Shown piece by piece: positions 12,990 to 19,048 of a stretch of 37,257 bases of DNA. Where the stretch lies: IMG/VR virus record IMGVR_UViG_2917849834_000002; one strand, written 5' to 3'. This DNA comes from a virus. Lineage: Duplodnaviria; Heunggongvirae; Uroviricota; Caudoviricetes. The notes under the pieces are model-generated. The model had not been told where the DNA came from, did not search any database, and saw only the letters and a list, made by a program, of their open reading frames with translations. The number at the start of each line of letters is the position of its first letter. The stretch's first letter is position 1. Made by a program: the position numbers and the translations under genes.

Positions 12990-13332
12990 CAAGAGATACC
13001 GTAAAAGTCAGGGGTTCAAAAAAATCTTCGGTGTGGGCGCTAATCAGCAGGCGACCAGAAAGCGGGGTTTCTTCTGTCACACTGACCGTGCCAGGTGTAA
13101 TACGCTCATCATCTTCAATCAGCAGTGTCATCTGCATCATGATGTCGGCACGAAGCGTCGGGCTTTTTTCAGCCAGCAGGCGCGTTGCCAGTCCGCTCTC
13201 AATGATGGCGTGCTGGCAGTCCTGGGCAATACTTTCCCTGTTGTTGCACAATACCGGCTCACTGGCGCTGTTCAGCGTGAGATTGCGACCGGTGATGAGC
13301 AAATCAATGTAAAGCGGTTTATCAGTATGCAT
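12982..13332 (-). CDS. Small baseplate protein in the gp25/gpW position
   Basis: 117 aa from ATG at 13332 (SD GGAG), overlapping the tape-measure stop by 8 nt; assignment is by position only. Confidence 0.35.
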   Translation of the reverse strand: MHTDKPLYIDLLITGRNLTLNSASEPVLCNNRESIAQDCQHAIIESGLATRLLAEKSPTLRADIMMQMTLLIEDDERITPGTVSVTEETPLSGRLLISAHTEDFFEPLTFTVSLDD

Positions 13333-15418
13333 GTAGCTCCATCCACTCGTTGAGGCGGGCAGGGGATGGATCCTGCACATTGACGTTGACCACGCGACGG
13401 GAGTTGTCGATTGTGGTCTGGTTTTCGCTGTTGTTCTGCATTTCTGCCGCAATGCCACCCGGCCCCGCACTGATGGCTTTACCGCCGGTTAATACGGAGC
13501 CTTCGCCACTTCCTGTGCTTTCTGATGTGCCGATGTTAACGCCGGGGATCATGTTGAGTTTGTCCACAATCCAGCCCCATGAATCACTGAAGGACTGTTT
13601 CACCAGTTCCCAGAGGTTACTGAAAATGTTCAGGATGCCGCCGGCGATATCCTTCAGGGCGTCCAGAGGTGAATGCGTGGAAAAATAGTTAACCAGTGCA
13701 TTCCAGCCGTCCTGGATTGTGTTCCATGCATTGCCGAACCATGCCCCCATACTGCCGACCATTTCAGCCACCCACTGAAAGGCGGCGGTATCCATCAGCG
13801 CGGCTTTAATCTCATCCCAGCGGGTGATCAGGAAATAAATGCCCACGCTCAGCGCAGCCAGTGCCAGGATGATTAATGTGATGGGGCTGAAAAGTAACTG
13901 TGTTGCAATTGCGGCTCCGCTGGTGACTGCGGTGTAGATTTTCATTGCTATGCCGGCGGCACCCAGCGCAACAGAATAAAGCCAGAGTCCGGCGCGCTGT
14001 AATTTCAGCAGCGCCAGCTGAATTTTTGCTTTGACGTTGTATGTTCCCATAGCAATGGACATGGCCAGATACAGCGCCCTGACCGTTCGGGCAACTACAG
14101 TGAATGCCCACATGGTAGCCGTCAGTGTGCGTTTCAGCAGAATGAGAATCTTCAGAGGTGCAACTGCTGCCAGCCAGACCAGCCGCAGTCCTGTCCAGAC
14201 AAACTTCGCCACACCCACCATAATGTTGACAACGGCACCCACTGCGGCAATGCCCAGCAGGGCGGCAGACAGTAAACCAATAGCCCGTGTGATATTGGGA
14301 TACAGACGTAACCAGGCAACAAAGGATTTACCGCCTTCGTTGCTTTTCTGGATAAACGGGTACAGAACAGGCAGCAACTGCGTGCCGATTTCGATGCGAA
14401 TGCCGTTAATAATTGCGGCGGCCTGTTCCCATGGATCAGCCATGGCCTGCGCCATTTCGACAGCCTTATCCATACCTTTGATATTGCCCAGCGTGGCGAT
14501 ATTCTTTTCAAGTCCGCCAATGTCCGCATTGAGTAATTTAATCATGGCCACAGCTTCATCGGAGCCAAAGGCGCTTTTCAGCAAATCGGAATCAGCCACT
14601 TTTGACAGATCACCAAATTTGCCCCTGATAAGTTTCATGATCTCGACAACACTTTTCATCGTGCCGTCTTTATTCACGAAATTAAGCCCCAGCTTTTTCT
14701 GGGCGCTGCCTACTGCGGCAAGAAATGCCTTGTACTTTGTCCCGGCCTCGCTGCCACTCATGGTGGCCTGCAGTTGTCCCAGCACGGCGAACTGTTCAGC
14801 CGCATCAATACCGGCCGCTTTTGCACTGGCACCCAGCGTGGTGAACGCCGCTGACATGTTATCGCCGGTTGTTTTAAACATTTGCACGGCGGTGGCGGTT
14901 TGCCCGGCGACCTGCTCCACCCATTTACTTTTTCCCATGGCATCAGCCTGGTCTTTAAAGATGCCGTACATGGTGCCCATGTAGGCGGTAATGGTCTGGC
15001 TGCTGGATTTGGTTGCTGCTGCCACCGTTGCTGATGCGGTGGTGAAGCGGGACAGCTCATCGTCAGTTAACCCGGCAATGGCTGACTGGATGTCGTAAGA
15101 AGCACGCACAAAATCCTGCGCAGCCCCGCCGTATTCCATAGTGAAATCAACGGCGGCGCGGCTGAGTTTACGCAATCCGGACTCTGCGACGCCCAGTGAT
15201 TTCACCTCACCGAGCGCCCTGTCCATTTCAATGGCTGGCATCAGTGCCCCCTGAATGGCAGCACCCACTCCCCAGAGCGCAGCGCCTCCGGTAGCAATGT
15301 CCCGAAAGGCTCCCCGACTTGTTGCAGCAAATCCCTGAACCTGTCGCCCGGCTGCACGCAACGGCCTTGTCAGGCGGTCTGTCAGTTCAAGAAGTAATTC
15401 AAGGCGCTGTTGTGACAT
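13322..15418 (-). CDS. Tail tape measure protein
   Basis: 698 aa, Ala/Gly-rich with central hydrophobic segments; directly downstream of the chaperone frameshift ORFs. Confidence 0.8.
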   Translation of the reverse strand: MSQQRLELLLELTDRLTRPLRAAGRQVQGFAATSRGAFRDIATGGAALWGVGAAIQGALMPAIEMDRALGEVKSLGVAESGLRKLSRAAVDFTMEYGGAAQDFVRASYDIQSAIAGLTDDELSRFTTASATVAAATKSSSQTITAYMGTMYGIFKDQADAMGKSKWVEQVAGQTATAVQMFKTTGDNMSAAFTTLGASAKAAGIDAAEQFAVLGQLQATMSGSEAGTKYKAFLAAVGSAQKKLGLNFVNKDGTMKSVVEIMKLIRGKFGDLSKVADSDLLKSAFGSDEAVAMIKLLNADIGGLEKNIATLGNIKGMDKAVEMAQAMADPWEQAAAIINGIRIEIGTQLLPVLYPFIQKSNEGGKSFVAWLRLYPNITRAIGLLSAALLGIAAVGAVVNIMVGVAKFVWTGLRLVWLAAVAPLKILILLKRTLTATMWAFTVVARTVRALYLAMSIAMGTYNVKAKIQLALLKLQRAGLWLYSVALGAAGIAMKIYTAVTSGAAIATQLLFSPITLIILALAALSVGIYFLITRWDEIKAALMDTAAFQWVAEMVGSMGAWFGNAWNTIQDGWNALVNYFSTHSPLDALKDIAGGILNIFSNLWELVKQSFSDSWGWIVDKLNMIPGVNIGTSESTGSGEGSVLTGGKAISAGPGGIAAEMQNNSENQTTIDNSRRVVNVNVQDPSPARLNEWMELHAY

Positions 15419-15615
15419 TACGATCCCTTAAAAGCACGGATAATGCCGTTATTGACGGCGATGCTCATATTTTCCCAGTAGTGGTTATCCAGCCAGACAG
15501 CGGCAGCCAGTGACTGCGGCGAGTCATCCTCGCCGGGCAGCCAGTGGCGGCGCAGGATCAGCATCCGGGTCAGGTCATTGCGATCAATGGCCCCCAGATG
15601 GCTTTTTATTTTTTT
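15418..15615 (-). other. -1 programmed frameshift extension (E' segment) giving an E-E' fusion
   Basis: From the A7 heptamer at 15609..15615 the -1 frame is open for 63 codons (IKSHLGAIDRNDLTRMLILRRHWLPGEDDSPQSLAAAVWLDNHYWENMSIAVNNGIIRAFKGS) and stops at a TAA overlapping the tape-measure ATG. Confidence 0.5.
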
Positions 15616-15899
15616 ACGGTGATTTCCACTTCCGGCACAAACTCGTTATTCACGGCTGTTGCCAGGCTGGCCGGCATTCCTGGTTTTTCCAGCAACTGGT
15701 TCAGCAGATCGCGGTGCTCTTTAATCACGATGCGGCGCAGGTAGTTTTTCAGCGGCGCGATTTTGTTATCCGGCATGAAGTCGTTCTGCAGATCGTTGTA
15801 GGCTTTAACGGTAGGGATAAACGTCAGTTCATGCTCGCCGACCTGTAAAGTGATGGTGTTCTCTGCGGTAGTCTGGGTGTTTTTATCGTTCATCATCAT
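15606..15899 (-). CDS. Tail assembly chaperone (gpE-like)
   Basis: 97 aa immediately upstream of the tape measure; ends in the slippery run A AAA AAA T. Confidence 0.55.
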   Translation of the reverse strand: MMMNDKNTQTTAENTITLQVGEHELTFIPTVKAYNDLQNDFMPDNKIAPLKNYLRRIVIKEHRDLLNQLLEKPGMPASLATAVNNEFVPEVEITVKK

Positions 15900-15924
15900 T
15901 TCCTTTTAAAGTCAAGAATAAGAG

Positions 15925-15957
15925 GGCTTAATAAGCCTGCAGGAAGGCTTATTAAGC
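15925..15957 (-). promoter_or_regulatory. 12-bp-stem hairpin between endolysin and tail chaperone genes
   Basis: GGCTTAATAAGCC / GGCTTATTAAGC inverted repeat with 8-nt loop, followed on the minus strand by a U-rich stretch; possible attenuator or processing site. Confidence 0.3.
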
Positions 15958-15963
15958 GTAAAA

Positions 15964-16305
15964 TCAGCGCACGCCGTTGTGCTCAAGGCTGAAATGATTG
16001 CCATCCGGGCGGTTTTTAAAACGACCGCCCCATGCGCCACCAAGTGATTCCCAGTACTCGCCCAGCTCGCGGTAGGCCTCTGTGCGGGTCTGATATTCAC
16101 CGTTAATAAACAGGTTAAAATCCACGGCCAGCCGCTGACAGTGCAGGCTGTTGGCAATGCCGGAACCCTTTTGGGCGTTGAGTTTTGCCTGCTCTGGTGT
16201 GCGGTACGCCTCACCGAACGTCAGGCCATAACCACGCTGATGGGCAAACTGGATGAGTTTTCCGATCATGACGGTAAATTGTTGTTGCTTATCGGAGAGT
16301 TTCAT
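15964..16305 (-). CDS. Endolysin, peptidase M15 family
   Basis: 113 aa; zinc-ligand pattern SLHCQRLAVD ... DGNHFSLEH typical of M15 L-alanyl-D-glutamate peptidases; follows a holin. Confidence 0.8.
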   Translation of the reverse strand: MKLSDKQQQFTVMIGKLIQFAHQRGYGLTFGEAYRTPEQAKLNAQKGSGIANSLHCQRLAVDFNLFINGEYQTRTEAYRELGEYWESLGGAWGGRFKNRPDGNHFSLEHNGVR

Positions 16306-16409
16306 TTTTGCTCCTTATGAGGTTGCTGAGGTTTGCGCAGCCAGTACCACAGTGCCCGGATAATTTTCCAGGCAATGGCGGCAGCTTTTTGTTCCCTGCG
16401 GGACAGCAT
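16302..16409 (-). CDS. 35-aa amphipathic basic peptide between holin and endolysin
   Basis: Not in the ORF track. MLSRREQKAAAIAWKIIRALWYWLRKPQQPHKEQK; SD AAAGAGGAG 8 nt upstream; its TGA overlaps the endolysin ATG. Confidence 0.3.
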   Translation of the reverse strand: MLSRREQKAAAIAWKIIRALWYWLRKPQQPHKEQK

Positions 16410-16414
16410 TGCTG

Positions 16415-16711
16415 TTACTCCTCTTTGTTCTCTTTCTCGCCCAGCTTCCGGCGCATATGACGCAGGAAGATTTCAACAATCTGGTAACCGGCAACGCCCA
16501 TTGCGGTGCCTGCGCCGGCAATGGCCAGTGGGTCAAGGTTCGGGTAGCGAACCAGCAGGGCAGCGGCAGAAACACCCAGCGCGCTCCCCAGCAGGGTTCG
16601 GCCCACAAACAACCGCAGCGTAATCGGCTCTGCGCCAGCCAGCACCCGACTTGCGGCAGCGATTCCGCCCAGAATGCCCAGAGTGATAATGGTGCGCTCA
16701 TGCTCCTGCAT
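16415..16711 (-). CDS. Holin (three predicted TM segments, charged C-terminus)
   Basis: 98 aa; three hydrophobic stretches then RHMRRKLGEKENKEE; immediately upstream of the endolysin. Confidence 0.6.
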   Translation of the reverse strand: MQEHERTIITLGILGGIAAASRVLAGAEPITLRLFVGRTLLGSALGVSAAALLVRYPNLDPLAIAGAGTAMGVAGYQIVEIFLRHMRRKLGEKENKEE

Positions 16712-16714
16712 GGT

Positions 16715-17170
16715 TCACCCCATCAGTCCGCGCACGTCGTTCTCTGAGAGAACGGGCACGCCGTTGATACGCACAAAGTCAGGGCTTGCCACCACGTACT
16801 TGATTTTGTGCGTGGTCAGATCTGCGCTCTCGGTGTCAATGCTTAACAGGCCGGAAAGCATCAGCTCACAACCGAAGGCTTCAACGCGGATTTCTTCGGT
16901 TCCCGTATTGGCGTAAAACACAAAATCCATTGGCGGCAGGTCACGCCACGATCCCGCCTGAGCAGCCACTTCCCCGAGCTGGTTAAAGCTGCGGGTACTC
17001 ATTTCGATTTCACCTTCGGCACTGACAGGGCCGCGCAGTTTGCCGTCAGGGATGCCACGGGTTTTGGCAACGGCGCTTTCATCGCTGATGTCCAGTGAGA
17101 TGCTTTTCACATGGATATCCGTTCCACCGATAAAAGTGTCAAACGCCATGCCGTTAATGCGGGTCGTCAT
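16715..17170 (-). CDS. Tail tube protein
   Basis: 151 aa directly downstream of and ATGA-coupled to the sheath gene. Confidence 0.55.
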   Translation of the reverse strand: MTTRINGMAFDTFIGGTDIHVKSISLDISDESAVAKTRGIPDGKLRGPVSAEGEIEMSTRSFNQLGEVAAQAGSWRDLPPMDFVFYANTGTEEIRVEAFGCELMLSGLLSIDTESADLTTHKIKYVVASPDFVRINGVPVLSENDVRGLMG

Positions 17171-18315
17171 GCGTTTTCCTCCAGAGATTTATCCAGCTGA
17201 ATGCCCACTTTGATGGTTTTAGGGCAGGCGTAAGGGCGGACGACAATGCTGATGCTGACCGTCTTTTCGTTCTGCCAGGTGATAACCACGTCGCCTTTCC
17301 GGGGCGATTTCACTTCGCCCGGAAACGTGATGCCGTTAATTTGCATGGATTTCGCCATGGCACGCAGTGGGCGGGCAAACAGCGTTTCATGTGCGGCAAT
17401 GCTGCCCGGCGTGCTGTTCAGCGAGCGGTCGGCAATCTTGGGGATGGCCATCAGCCGCACGCGGCGCGCCACCTTATCAGCAATGCGGACATGCTCAATG
17501 ACGTTGTAGTCCCCGCCTTCCACCTCAAGTGTTACACCGTCAGCCCAGTAAAGGCCGTCATAGTCGGCATACCACATGGGCACGCTGTAGCGGGCGGTTG
17601 CCAGTGCCTGCAGAGTGTCGAGATCAATTGCCTGCCCTGTGCTGTCTTTCGGGCGTTCTGTGGTTTTCAGTGCGGACAGGGGCCCGGTTGCCACACGTGC
17701 TGGACTGTCAGCAATGGTGACGGCGCTGTTACACAGGCGACCGGCAAGAACGCCCGGTTCAAATCCAAAAATCTCCGGAACCAGCATGACCTGCGGGGCT
17801 GCAATGCCTTTCTGTAGTGCGGTCAGTTCGGCAACGTATTCCGCCCAGGTTTTACTGTTGTCGTTGGCGGCGATGGTCAGGATGAACCAGATGCGGCGCT
17901 GATATTTATTGATGATGGTCTGACGTAACGCCTGTATGGCGTTGATGTCATCCTGCGTGCTGACCGGCTCGGTGATCACCACGCCTTCAACTGAAACAGT
18001 TTCCTGAGCCGCCAGTATGGCGTTCTGCCATACCTGGCAGGCTGGCGTTGCTTCTTTGCCTTTGCCGGCTTCCGGCAGAACGGCAACATAGAAAAAGGCA
18101 TTCTGTCCGGCATTGGTCAGTGCAGACTGAAGGAAGTTTTTCAGCGGGCTGGCGTTCTTTCCCAGTAGCTCATCCAGATCGCTGTTGGCATTAACCGGCA
18201 GAACCTCACCTTTGTTGTTTTGTGCATTGCCCACAAACAGCAGCGTATTTTCCACGCCGTCCGGTGAACTGCTGAATGTGTTGTACTGTTCAATCGTGAC
18301 AGATGGCCATGTCAT
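17167..18315 (-). CDS. Tail sheath protein
   Basis: About 383 aa from ATG at 18315 (SD AGGAGA 6 nt upstream; the ORF extends to 18447); size and position before the tube gene. Confidence 0.6.
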   Translation of the reverse strand: MTWPSVTIEQYNTFSSSPDGVENTLLFVGNAQNNKGEVLPVNANSDLDELLGKNASPLKNFLQSALTNAGQNAFFYVAVLPEAGKGKEATPACQVWQNAILAAQETVSVEGVVITEPVSTQDDINAIQALRQTIINKYQRRIWFILTIAANDNSKTWAEYVAELTALQKGIAAPQVMLVPEIFGFEPGVLAGRLCNSAVTIADSPARVATGPLSALKTTERPKDSTGQAIDLDTLQALATARYSVPMWYADYDGLYWADGVTLEVEGGDYNVIEHVRIADKVARRVRLMAIPKIADRSLNSTPGSIAAHETLFARPLRAMAKSMQINGITFPGEVKSPRKGDVVITWQNEKTVSISIVVRPYACPKTIKVGIQLDKSLEENA

Positions 18316-18334
18316 GGTTTGTCTCCTGATTTTG

Positions 18335-19048
18335 TTATCTCGTGCCGCCGTAATGCAGGCTGCGCAGCTGCGCTTCCAGAATGCGGGCAAATTCAGCATC
18401 GCTGGCTCCCAGAAATGCGCGGGAGGGGATTTTGATTTCCCATACACGTTTTTTCTGCTCGCCTTTCAGAATGCTGATCACCAGTCCGGCCTGCGCCATA
18501 CTCATGTTTTCCATAATCCATTTCAGAGAAGGCTTTCTGCGTCCCCTGCGTCCGGTTTTTTTGCTGACTGCGCCGACGGGGGCCCGAAAGCCCAGAGAAA
18601 GAAGGCGTTCTGCCTGCCGTCGTGTGGCGGGACGGGTGCGCATGGCTTCGCTGTCCCGGCGTTTTGTGGCGCGGCCTTTGATGGTTGCGCCGTGCTGTTG
18701 CACCCACGCGACCGCCCCACCATGAGAGCCGGTGTTGTAATCCCCTTTTTTGAAGAAAAGGCGGACACTTTTCCCGCTGCCGTCAACCCTGATGGCCAGC
18801 AATTTCGGCAGTCCCAGCAGCATTTTGTTTTTATACCTGCCGCTGGCTTTATCCGGTCTTTTTCGTGGTGCCCAGGCTGCCCCCTCCGGTGTTCGCTGTG
18901 CTTTCACATTGCGTCGTGCAGCCGGTCTCAGGCCGTATTTCGCAATGCGAACCAGCAGCTTTCTGGCCTTTGCCGGCGGAAGTTCTGCCTCTCTGATGGC
19001 GCGACGAACCTGCCGGAGTTGTGACTCGTTAATCACGGGGCTCGTCAT
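18335..19048 (-). CDS. Virion morphogenesis / tail completion protein (gpS-like)
   Basis: 237 aa, basic; positioned between the R-like and sheath genes; ATGA-coupled to the R-like gene. Confidence 0.45.
   Translation of the reverse strand: MTSPVINESQLRQVRRAIREAELPPAKARKLLVRIAKYGLRPAARRNVKAQRTPEGAAWAPRKRPDKASGRYKNKMLLGLPKLLAIRVDGSGKSVRLFFKKGDYNTGSHGGAVAWVQQHGATIKGRATKRRDSEAMRTRPATRRQAERLLSLGFRAPVGAVSKKTGRRGRRKPSLKWIMENMSMAQAGLVISILKGEQKKRVWEIKIPSRAFLGASDAEFARILEAQLRSLHYGGTR

What the first reader, a model, noticed from the sequence alone, without database searches (positions are those of the whole stretch)
15418..15620. Programmed -1 frameshift between tail chaperone genes
The gpE-like ORF ends in A AAA AAA TAA. 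From that heptamer the -1 frame stays open for 63 codons and stops at a TAA overlapping the tape-measure ATG. This is the conserved G/GT and E/E+E' arrangement of long-tailed phages.
Basis: partly seen in the sequence, partly recalled or inferred. Interest (0 to 1): 0.4.

Follow-up and report, generated by a model that had tools for sequence, protein, structure and literature searches.

The report
Tail-chaperone -1 frameshift in HP1-like prophage
This is the usual trick of long-tailed phages, in which a few ribosomes slip back one base at the end of a small tail-assembly gene to make a longer second protein. The site is real and strongly conserved, but it is an ordinary member of a well-known class that databases have simply failed to annotate.

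Summary
A 97-aa tail assembly chaperone gene (15899..15606) ends GTA AAA AAA TAA. From the A_AAA_AAA heptamer (15615..15609) the -1 frame is open for 63 codons, and its TAA overlaps the tape-measure ATG (TAATG), predicting a 160-aa fusion.

These raw features are not rare in the window. The case rests on conservation:
- The 0-frame part is Pfam Phage_TAC_10 and the -1 part is Pfam DUF6890.
- In all 243 junction sequences examined from HP1-like phages (Peduoviridae), the DUF6890 frame is -1 and an A_AAA_AAN heptamer sits in register in the overlap.
- Third-codon-position variability switches frame at the heptamer.
- Several lineages have no start codon for the second frame.
- In 61 junctions the overlap is only 13 nt.

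Predicted RNA structure is enriched directly 3' of the heptamer, most strongly at A7 sites like this one, but the hairpins differ between lineages.

Best explanation: a programmed -1 ribosomal frameshift of the lambda G/GT type. The genes are not homologous to P2 gpE/E+E', so "gpE-like" holds by position and function only. No public record I saw annotates the frameshift. It is a new member of a known kind, of modest interest.

The parts
15606..15899 (-). Tail assembly chaperone gene (0 frame, G-like), 97 aa from the first ATG. PGAP starts relatives at the third ATG, giving 95 aa. Includes the TAA stop at 15608..15606.
   Evidence: ORF and translation. Pfam Phage_TAC_10 E = 6e-26, PHROG 1214 E = 1e-32. 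Annotated 'putative phage tail assembly chaperone' in 42 E. coli genomes.
15609..15615 (-). Slippery heptamer A_AAA_AAA in the X_XXY_YYZ register, followed directly by the 0-frame stop TAA.
   Evidence: Sequence. A_AAA_AAN is in the same register in 22/22, 5/5 and 216/216 related junctions. Exactly A7 in 25/25 close relatives.
15418..15609 (-). -1 frame extension (T-like), 63 codons plus the TAA stop (15420..15418). First codon ATA re-reads the last A of the heptamer.
   Evidence: Translation. Pfam DUF6890 E = 5e-23, PHROG 7050 E = 8e-29. Gap-free alignment with invariant L121, P122, A134 and W136. Third-position variability lies in this frame.
15606..15645 (-). Overlap window of 40 nt in which both frames are open. 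The shift must occur here.
   Evidence: The upstream stop in the -1 frame is at 15648..15646. In 61 related junctions this window shrinks to 13 nt, essentially the heptamer plus the stop.
15560..15603 (-). Predicted mRNA hairpin starting 5 nt 3' of the heptamer (AUCUGGGGG/CCCGGAU outer stem, CAUUG/CAAUG inner stem). Candidate frameshift stimulator.
   Evidence: MFE -19.5 kcal/mol, z = -3.4, 0 of 200 dinucleotide shuffles fold as well. The same hairpin is kept in close relatives. Structure is enriched at this position across the family, but there are no conserved pairs.
15418..15564 (-). The 48-aa 'DUF6890 family protein' CDS as called by PGAP from an internal ATG. I regard it as an annotation artefact covering the 3' part of the extension.
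   Evidence: Annotation. There is no Shine-Dalgarno before this ATG, and four lineages have no start codon in the first 30 codons. Conservation extends upstream of it to the heptamer.
13322..15418 (-). Tail tape measure protein gene, 698 aa. Its ATG overlaps the stop of the extension (TAATG).
   Evidence: Pfam PhageMin_Tail E = 7.5e-29, PHROG 28 tail length tape measure E = 1.5e-90.
16715..17170 (-). Tail tube gene (HP1 Orf24 family), upstream context.
   Evidence: Pfam Phage_HP1_Orf24 E = 1e-50.
17167..18447 (-). Tail sheath gene (DUF2586 / PHROG 907). PGAP uses a later start in relatives.
   Evidence: Pfam DUF2586 E = 3e-127, PHROG 907 tail sheath E = 2e-147.
15964..16711 (-). Lysis cassette inserted between the tube and chaperone genes: holin 16711..16415 and M15 peptidase endolysin 16305..15964.
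   Evidence: Pfam Phage_holin_3_2 E = 5.5e-28 and Peptidase_M15_4 E = 3e-11. HP1-like relatives have the same layout.

Best explanation

Most ribosomes translate the 97-aa chaperone and terminate at TAA (15608..15606). A minority slip back one base on A_AAA_AAA (15615..15609). The lysine tRNAs re-pair perfectly, the next codon read is AUA, and translation continues for 63 codons in the -1 frame. The result is a 160-aa fusion, ...EITVKK-IKSHLGAIDRN...AFKGS, that ends at the tape measure start codon.

By analogy with lambda gpG/gpGT (review PMC5009743), the shared N-terminal part would coat the tape measure protein. The rare C-terminal extension (Pfam DUF6890) would recruit the tube protein. Both would be absent from the finished virion.

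A hairpin 5 nt downstream (15603..15560) and the stop codon abutting the heptamer are candidate stimulators.

- Shown: the anatomy, the family assignments, the conservation, the frame of selection, and the predicted structure.
- Inferred: that the fusion is made, its level, the roles of the hairpin and the stop, and the function of the two proteins.
For: 1. Anatomy is exactly as described.
2. The 0-frame part is Phage_TAC_10 and the -1 part is DUF6890, both with strong E-values. The gene sits directly before the tape measure gene and after sheath, tube, holin and endolysin.
3. tblastn with the fusion hits 76 phage records, each as two adjacent pieces.
4. In 22 diverse loci (HP1, K139, phiO18P, ESSI-2, F108, phi3, PV94, SI7 and others), 5 intermediate relatives and 216 further unique junctions, the second frame is always -1. 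A_AAA_AAN is always in register in the overlap, and the extension is 60-64 aa (one exception of 44).
5. Third-position entropy is highest in the 0 frame before the heptamer (1.05/0.78/1.54) and in the -1 frame after it (1.00/0.85/1.55).
6. Conservation starts at the first residue after the slip. YenM324, ESSI-2, ev015 and SMHB1 have no ATG, GTG or TTG in the first 30 codons, and the window's internal ATG lacks a Shine-Dalgarno.
7. In 61 junctions the two frames overlap by only 13 nt, so the shift can occur only at the heptamer.
8. The 60 nt directly 3' of the heptamer are unusually structured: mean z -2.05 in 31 representatives against -0.86 to +0.43 at 20 other offsets, Wilcoxon p = 2e-6. The window's hairpin has z = -3.4. 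A 3' structure can act on a ribosome, but not on an RNA polymerase that has not yet transcribed it.
9. E. coli has a single lysine tRNA. A_AAA_AAA is shift-prone there, though less so than A_AAA_AAG (PMC5009743), which fits a low-level shift.
Against: - There is no experimental evidence here or in any paper I could search for this phage group. No database entry holds the full-length fusion.
- The hairpins are not homologous between lineages. RNAalifold finds no consensus pairs, and A_AAA_AAC and A_AAA_AAG lineages have little predicted structure (mean z about -1.2). A structural stimulator is therefore not a family-wide requirement, and the enrichment test is not corrected for shared ancestry.
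- A7 could also support some transcriptional slippage.
- The review notes that a slow-to-decode A site matters more for +1 than for -1 shifts, so a role for the adjacent stop is speculative.
Confidence: 0.86

Rival explanations
1. The frame change is made by RNA polymerase rather than the ribosome. Slippage on the A7 run adds one A to a fraction of transcripts, and normal translation of those mRNAs gives the same 160-aa fusion with one extra lysine.
For: The window and 11 of the 30 other non-redundant lineages have an uninterrupted A7 run. Homopolymer A runs are the known substrate of transcriptional slippage (general knowledge; review PMC5009743). The frame outcome matches that of a -1 ribosomal shift.
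Against: - Most relatives have only A6 followed by C or G (148 + 68 + 11 junctions). From general knowledge, which I did not verify in a paper here, that is shorter than the roughly 9-nt runs used in established bacterial cases.
- Across 243 junctions every run is exactly A6 or A7. None has lengthened, and all 25 close relatives have exactly A7.
- The enriched RNA structure lies 3' of the run, where it cannot influence a polymerase sitting on the run.
- There is no comparable structure enrichment 5' of the run (offsets -30 and -60).
Confidence: 0.07
2. These are two independent genes, as annotated by PGAP. The DUF6890 ORF would be translated on its own from the internal ATG at 15564 (48 aa), or by termination-reinitiation after the chaperone stop.
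For: RefSeq annotates a separate 'DUF6890 family protein' CDS in 42 E. coli genomes. Several phage records do likewise. An ATG exists at extension codon 16 in the window and in some Vibrio phages.
Against: - There is no Shine-Dalgarno before the ATG.
- The start is not conserved. Four lineages have no ATG, GTG or TTG in the first 30 codons, and others differ in position.
- The 15 residues upstream of the ATG are conserved as protein right up to the heptamer.
- The invariant -1 relation and in-register heptamer in 243 of 243 junctions would be unexplained.
Confidence: 0.04
3. It is a chance open frame next to a chance A run, with no functional second product.
For: A7 runs and 63-codon open stretches are individually common in this window.
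Against: - The extension matches Pfam and PHROG families at E = 5e-23 and 8e-29.
- It is conserved at protein level across at least 12 phage genera, with a codon-position signature of purifying selection.
Confidence: 0.01

Closest known systems
Phage lambda gpG / gpGT programmed -1 frameshift (Levin, Hendrix & Casjens 1993; Xu, Hendrix & Duda 2004, 2013, 2014, as summarised in PMC5009743)
   Same: - A small chaperone gene lies immediately upstream of the tape measure gene.
- The overlapping -1 ORF has no start of its own.
- A heptamer in X_XXY_YYZ register sits near the end of the upstream ORF.
- The extension is about 60 aa.
- The arrangement is conserved despite sequence divergence.
   Different: - Lambda uses G_GGA_AAG several codons before the G stop. 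Here it is A_AAA_AAA with the stop directly adjacent.
- There is no detectable sequence homology.
- This phage has a contractile tail (sheath and tube genes).
- A lysis cassette separates the tube gene from the chaperone gene.
- Predicted 3' structure is enriched here. A paper citing Xu et al. describes such structure as rare for these phage sites (PMC3091744).
Phage P2 gpE / gpE+E' (Christie et al. 2002; annotated in NC_001895)
   Same: - Same virus family (Peduoviridae), contractile tail, and the same slot before the tape measure gene.
- A -1 shift with similar sizes: 91 and 142 aa there, 97 and 160 aa here.
- The end of the extension abuts or overlaps the start of the tape measure gene.
   Different: - Different Pfam families: Phage_TAC_7 plus Phage_P2_GpE against Phage_TAC_10 plus DUF6890.
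- No homology by BLASTP (E = 0.43) or hhalign (probability 0.2%).
- The heptamer is T_TTT_TTG, with the E stop 20 nt downstream.
- No downstream structure is reported for P2.
Haemophilus phage HP1 orf26 and its unannotated downstream frame, with the same pair in HP2, K139, Kappa, phiO18P, ESSI-2, F108, phi3, PV94 and SI7
   Same: - True homologues: Phage_TAC_10 plus DUF6890, at 35-57% identity.
- Same gene order: sheath, tube, lysis genes, chaperone, tape measure.
- Same A_AAA_AAN heptamer and -1 relation.
   Different: - HP1, K139, phiO18P and ESSI-2 use A_AAA_AAC, and Pseudomonas phages use A_AAA_AAG with the stop 21 nt downstream. The window uses A_AAA_AAA.
- Most relatives carry spanin genes before the chaperone gene. 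The window does not.
- None of these records annotates the frameshift.
E. coli dnaX and IS-element -1 frameshift sites on A_AAA_AAG or A_AAA_AAC
   Same: An A-rich heptamer is read by the single E. coli lysine tRNA, and a 3' hairpin lies a few nucleotides downstream (PMC5009743).
   Different: - dnaX also has an upstream Shine-Dalgarno-like stimulator and shifts at about 50%.
- No convincing internal Shine-Dalgarno is seen here (only GGA 10-12 nt upstream, from a conserved Glu codon).
- The biology is unrelated.

Membership tests
Tail assembly chaperone G/GT-type programmed frameshift (class defined by Xu, Hendrix & Duda 2004) | Two overlapping ORFs lie between the major tail (tube) gene and the tape measure gene, directly upstream of the tape measure gene. 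| tested here: met
   The order is sheath, tube, holin, endolysin, chaperone, extension, tape measure. The lysis cassette between tube and chaperone is the HP1-like variant of this layout.
Tail assembly chaperone G/GT-type programmed frameshift (class defined by Xu, Hendrix & Duda 2004) | The second ORF is in the -1 frame (rarely +1), overlaps the end of the first, and has no conserved start codon or ribosome binding site. | tested here: met
   The -1 relation holds in 243 of 243 junctions. Four lineages have no start codon in the first 30 codons, and the window's ATG has no Shine-Dalgarno.
Tail assembly chaperone G/GT-type programmed frameshift (class defined by Xu, Hendrix & Duda 2004) | A slippery sequence in the correct register lies inside the overlap. 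| tested here: met
   A_AAA_AAA at 15615..15609. A_AAA_AAN is in register in all relatives. The overlap is only 13 nt in 61 junctions.
Tail assembly chaperone G/GT-type programmed frameshift (class defined by Xu, Hendrix & Duda 2004) | The arrangement is conserved while the sequences diverge, and the second frame is under protein-level selection. | tested here: met
   Identity falls to about 35% across at least 12 genera. The codon-position entropy switches frame at the heptamer.
Tail assembly chaperone G/GT-type programmed frameshift (class defined by Xu, Hendrix & Duda 2004) | Both the short and the fused product are made, at a high short-to-long ratio. Both are needed for tail assembly, and neither is in the virion. 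| not testable with these tools
   This needs a reporter assay, mass spectrometry and genetics. No full-length fusion entry was found in the protein database.
Pfam Phage_TAC_10 (PF10963) tail assembly chaperone | Match to the family model above the gathering score. | tested here: met
   90.8 bits against a cut-off of 25.7, E = 6e-26, covering model positions 1-82 of 82.
Pfam DUF6890 (PF21830) | Match to the family model above the gathering score. | tested here: met
   81.1 bits against a cut-off of 23.6, E = 5e-23, at residues 116-159 of the fusion, which lie in the -1 frame extension.
P2 gpE / gpE+E' family (Pfam Phage_TAC_7 + Phage_P2_GpE) | Sequence homology to P2 E and E'. | tested here: not met
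   Neither family was hit at E <= 0.01. BLASTP E = 0.43. hhalign probability 0.2%. P2's own proteins hit those families.
P2 gpE / gpE+E' family (Pfam Phage_TAC_7 + Phage_P2_GpE) | T_TTT_TTG shift site, with the E stop about 20 nt downstream. | tested here: not met
   The window has A_AAA_AAA with the stop adjacent.
Transcriptional slippage sites | A long homopolymer run. About 9 or more A or T in established bacterial cases, from general knowledge. | tested here: not met
   The run is A7 in the window and A6 in most relatives. No run is longer than A7 in any of 243 junctions, and all 25 close relatives have exactly A7.
Transcriptional slippage sites | A fraction of transcripts carries an inserted nucleotide. 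| not testable with these tools
   This needs cDNA deep sequencing.
dnaX-type stimulated -1 frameshift | A 3' stem-loop lies 5-9 nt after the heptamer. | tested here: met
   The window hairpin starts 5 nt after the heptamer, at -19.5 kcal/mol and z = -3.4. Whether it stimulates the shift is untested.
dnaX-type stimulated -1 frameshift | An internal Shine-Dalgarno-like element lies about 10 nt upstream of the heptamer. | tested here: inconclusive
   Only GGA is present 10-12 nt upstream in many lineages. It comes from a conserved Glu codon, and HP1 and K139 lack it.

The most novel reading that the evidence does not exclude
In this HP1-type family the frameshift would be coupled to termination.

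- The weaker heptamers (A_AAA_AAA, A_AAA_AAC) would depend on the stop codon that abuts them in every lineage seen. At A7 sites they would also depend on fast-evolving, lineage-specific hairpins.
- Lineages that acquired the strongest heptamer (A_AAA_AAG) have let the stop drift 21 nt away.
- The ratio of chaperone to fusion would then be set by competition between release factor and slippage, and could respond to host physiology.
- A by-product is that Pfam DUF6890 gets a function, as the tube-recruiting 'T domain' of this chaperone family.
Probability: 0.3. Interest if true: 0.45.

Novelty: new member of a known kind. Interest (0 to 1): 0.3.

Why it matters
**Annotation.** A whole branch of Peduoviridae carries this frameshift: HP1, HP2, K139, Kappa, phiO18P, ESSI-2, F108, phi3 and hundreds of prophages in Escherichia, Salmonella, Yersinia, Vibrio, Aeromonas, Pseudomonas, Haemophilus and Pasteurella.
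- None of the records I saw annotates it.
- The second frame is either left blank or called a stand-alone "DUF6890 family protein" from an arbitrary internal start.
- Joining the two frames would correct an essential tail gene in these genomes and give DUF6890 a likely role.

**Mechanism.** The family offers a natural comparison for testing what tunes low-level -1 frameshifting in bacteria. It has three heptamer variants, a strict link between heptamer type and stop position, and hairpins that are kept in place but not in sequence.

It does not change the general picture of tail assembly.

Tried and rejected
- **Consensus RNA structure.** RNAalifold on 20 aligned junctions gave no pairs. I dropped the idea of one conserved stimulatory hairpin and used a positional z-score test instead.
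- **Profile-based locus search in bacterial genomes.** I replaced it with four single-protein scans of viral contigs.
- **Protein database search with the fusion.** It found only close relatives of the chaperone half and no full-length fusion. The one two-domain hit (P0005) is a deletion derivative.
- **Structure prediction of the fusion.** The tool does not accept the phage homologues, so I ran it without an alignment. That gave pLDDT 35, which is unusable, so I ran no fold search.
- **Solved-structure search with the family profile.** It gave only one weak hit (3fgx, E = 0.008).
- **Literature.** Xu et al. 2004 and Christie et al. 2002 are not held. Searches for DUF6890, HP1 or phiO18P together with frameshift found no description of this site. 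I therefore cannot say whether those two papers already listed HP1 or K139.
- **Upstream Shine-Dalgarno-like stimulator.** I considered it and rejected it as unsupported.
- **Phase variation or sequencing error at the A run.** Rejected, because 25 of 25 close copies have exactly A7.
Full report
**What is in the sequence**

The genes at this locus are on the minus strand.
- A 97-aa ORF runs from 15899 to 15606 and ends ...GAA ATC ACC GTA AAA AAA TAA.
- The seven A's (15615..15609) form A_AAA_AAA in the classical X_XXY_YYZ register relative to the 0 frame. The TAA stop follows directly.
- The -1 frame is open from 15645. Counted from the codon that re-reads the last A (ATA, 15609..15607), it runs 63 codons to a TAA at 15420..15418.
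- That TAA shares its last two bases with the ATG of the next gene (TAATG). That gene is a 698-aa ORF, 15418..13322.
- A -1 slip on the heptamer would give a 160-aa protein, ...EITVKK-IKSHLGAIDRNDLTRMLILRRHWLPGEDD...AFKGS.

Every statement in the finding is therefore correct.

**Is it more than chance?**

The raw features are not.
- AAAAAAA occurs 21 times in the window, against about 12 expected.
- About 28% of positions have at least 63 open codons ahead.

The significance comes from what the two frames encode and from comparison with relatives.

**What the genes are**

- The 0-frame protein matches Pfam Phage_TAC_10, a tail assembly chaperone family, at E = 6e-26.
- The -1 extension matches Pfam DUF6890, a 44-residue family of unknown function, at E = 5e-23.
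- The downstream gene is a tape measure protein (PhageMin_Tail, PHROG 28).
- Upstream lie a tail sheath (DUF2586, PHROG 907), a tube protein of the HP1 Orf24 family, a holin and an M15 peptidase endolysin.
- A lysis cassette between the tube and chaperone genes is the layout of HP1-like members of the Peduoviridae.
- The same DNA, at 95-99% identity, is a chromosomal prophage in 42 of 5,426 complete E. coli genomes.
- PGAP annotates it there as two separate genes: a "putative phage tail assembly chaperone" and a 48-aa "DUF6890 family protein" starting at the internal ATG 15564. No frameshift is annotated.

**Conservation of the two-frame arrangement**

A tblastn search with the 160-aa fusion found 76 phage records, each as two adjacent pieces. 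They include Haemophilus HP1 and HP2, Vibrio K139 and Kappa, Aeromonas phiO18P, Cronobacter ESSI-2, Pasteurella F108, Pseudomonas phi3 and Salmonella SI7.

I fetched 18 of these from different genera and added three divergent viral contigs.
- In all 22 loci, window included, the DUF6890-like frame is -1 relative to the chaperone frame.
- The overlap always contains (G/C)TA AAA AAN with the heptamer in register, and the extension is 60-64 aa.
- Five intermediate relatives from Yersinia, Plesiomonas and metagenomes behave the same way.
- Four further scans of viral contigs, seeded with other lineages, gave 296 loci and 216 unique junctions. All 216 are -1 and all have A_AAA_AAN in register.
- The three loci without an extension hit are cut by contig ends.

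None of the phage records annotates a frameshift. In HP1, K139, YenM324, ESSI-2, PV94, PY3, SMHB1 and L9-1 the roughly 190 nt are simply left blank.

**Evidence that the extension is translated by entry from the chaperone frame**

- Across the 22 loci, third-codon-position variability is highest in the 0 frame for the 20 codons before the heptamer (entropy 1.05/0.78/1.54). It is highest in the -1 frame for the 59 codons after it (1.00/0.85/1.55). Protein-level selection therefore changes frame at the heptamer.
- The extension aligns without gaps from its first residue. It is better conserved than the chaperone part, with L121, P122, A134 and W136 invariant.
- An independent start is not conserved. 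YenM324, ESSI-2, ev015 and SMHB1 have no ATG, GTG or TTG in the first 30 codons, and the window's ATG has no Shine-Dalgarno.
- In 61 junctions the -1 frame opens only 13 nt before the end of the 0-frame stop. There the shift can occur nowhere but on the heptamer.
- All 25 near-identical copies have exactly A7 + TAA. That excludes a sequencing error or a variable homopolymer tract.

**Shift-site variants and the adjacent stop**

The last base of the heptamer varies.

| Heptamer | Lineages |
|---|---|
| A_AAA_AAA | The window's clade, several Vibrio and Pseudoalteromonas phages |
| A_AAA_AAC | HP1, K139, F108, phiO18P, ESSI-2, SI7 |
| A_AAA_AAG | Pseudomonas phages |

- In every A- and C-type junction the 0-frame stop follows the heptamer directly.
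- In every G-type junction it lies 21 nt downstream.
- For comparison, the mean distance from slip site to stop in annotated actinobacteriophage chaperone frameshifts is 26 nt (PMC10885494). In P2 it is 20 nt.

So the weaker heptamers may lean on the adjacent stop. I rate this as only a possibility. The G-type lineages may be a single clade. The same review also notes that a slow-to-decode A site matters more for +1 than for -1 shifts.

A tandem slip and a P-site slip with the stop in the A site would give the same protein.

**Downstream RNA structure**

- In the window a hairpin (15603..15560) starts 5 nt after the heptamer. Its energy is -19.5 kcal/mol and z = -3.4, and none of 200 dinucleotide shuffles folds as well. 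The 109 nt after the heptamer fold with z = -4.2.
- Across the family there is no consensus structure: RNAalifold returns no pairs.
- Predicted structure is nevertheless concentrated at this position. In 31 representatives at no more than 80% nucleotide identity, the 60 nt right after the heptamer have mean z -2.05 (13 of 31 below -2). The 20 other offsets give -0.86 to +0.43. The paired Wilcoxon test gives p = 2e-6, not corrected for shared ancestry (the first set is).
- The effect is strongest at A_AAA_AAA sites (mean about -3.3, with 10 of 12 at or below -2). It is weak at AAC and AAG sites (about -1.2).
- Within the window's own clade two different hairpins are used. Their arms move by a codon between relatives, together with amino-acid swaps (ASI...QMLA against AI...QLMA).

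I read this as selection for a hairpin at that place rather than for a particular hairpin. That remains an inference.

It also bears on the main rival explanation. A structure 3' of the run can impede a ribosome, but it cannot affect a polymerase that has not yet transcribed it.

**Comparison with known systems**

- Functionally and positionally this is the lambda G/GT and P2 E/E+E' arrangement. The chaperone and its rare frameshift extension act on the tape measure and tube proteins, at a ratio of about 30:1 in lambda (PMC5009743).
- It is not a member of the P2 gpE family. P2 E and E+E' fall in Phage_TAC_7 and Phage_P2_GpE and use T_TTT_TTG. They show no homology to the window's pair by BLASTP (E = 0.43) or profile comparison (probability 0.2%).
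- The true family is HP1 orf26 (Phage_TAC_10) plus DUF6890.
- I could not read Xu et al. 2004 or Christie et al. 2002. Nothing in the searchable literature describes this site. I therefore cannot exclude that HP1 or K139 were already listed in those two papers.

**Rivals**

- **Transcriptional slippage on A7** cannot be excluded as a minor contributor. It is disfavoured by the A6 runs of most relatives, by the absence of any run longer than A7, and by the 3' position of the structure.
- **Independent translation of the DUF6890 ORF** is disfavoured by the lack of a conserved start and by conservation upstream of the annotated start.
- **Chance** is excluded by the family matches and the conservation.

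**Verdict**

The site is real, strongly conserved and almost certainly functional. It is a textbook kind of recoding event in a phage group where it has gone unannotated.

It is a new member of a known kind, and interest is modest. Three points add a little:
- DUF6890 gets a likely role.
- The link between stop position and heptamer type is testable.
- The hairpins are conserved in position but not in sequence.

Noticed in passing
window 15926..15957 (minus strand): A terminator-like hairpin (13-bp stem GCTTAATAAGCCT/AGGCTTATTAAGC, 6-nt loop, T-rich tail) lies 6 nt after the endolysin stop and about 26 nt before the chaperone start. It could partly insulate the lysis genes from the tail genes. 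It is exact in 21 of 25 close relatives, variant but still pairing in L023 and L024, and absent in more distant relatives.
   Followed up: partly
window 15732..15740 and 15547..15555 (minus strand); protein P0005: A 9-nt direct repeat, CTGCGCCGC (Leu-Arg-Arg), occurs once in the chaperone frame and once in the -1 extension, 185 nt apart. A 96-aa Salmonella Montevideo protein is exactly the deletion between the two copies. That deletion fuses a truncated chaperone in frame to the extension, probably in a decayed prophage.
   Followed up: partly
window 15900..16414 (minus strand): No Rz/Rz1-type spanin genes lie between the endolysin (15964..16305) and the chaperone gene, whereas HP1, YenM324, ESSI-2, phiO18P and phi3 have them there. 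There is also a 109-nt gap between the holin and the endolysin. I did not look for where, or whether, this prophage encodes a spanin.
   Followed up: no
L027 (HP1), L028 (K139), L029, L030, L034, L036, L038-L042, and E. coli L001: Public annotation of the second frame is inconsistent. It is left blank in many reference phage genomes and called as a stand-alone small ORF from differing internal starts in others. The K139 record instead has a long orf30 that begins far upstream, overlapping the preceding lysis-region ORF.
   Followed up: partly
one of the 216 unique junctions among L056-L351 (locus not identified): One junction has a 44-aa extension instead of 60-64 aa. It may be a truncated or decaying copy.
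   Followed up: no
window 17167..18447 (minus strand): The mechanical ORF for the sheath gene starts at a GTG and gives 426 aa. PGAP starts the homologue about 44 codons later, giving 382 aa. The Pfam and PHROG matches also begin near residue 45, so the shorter form is probably right.
   Followed up: no
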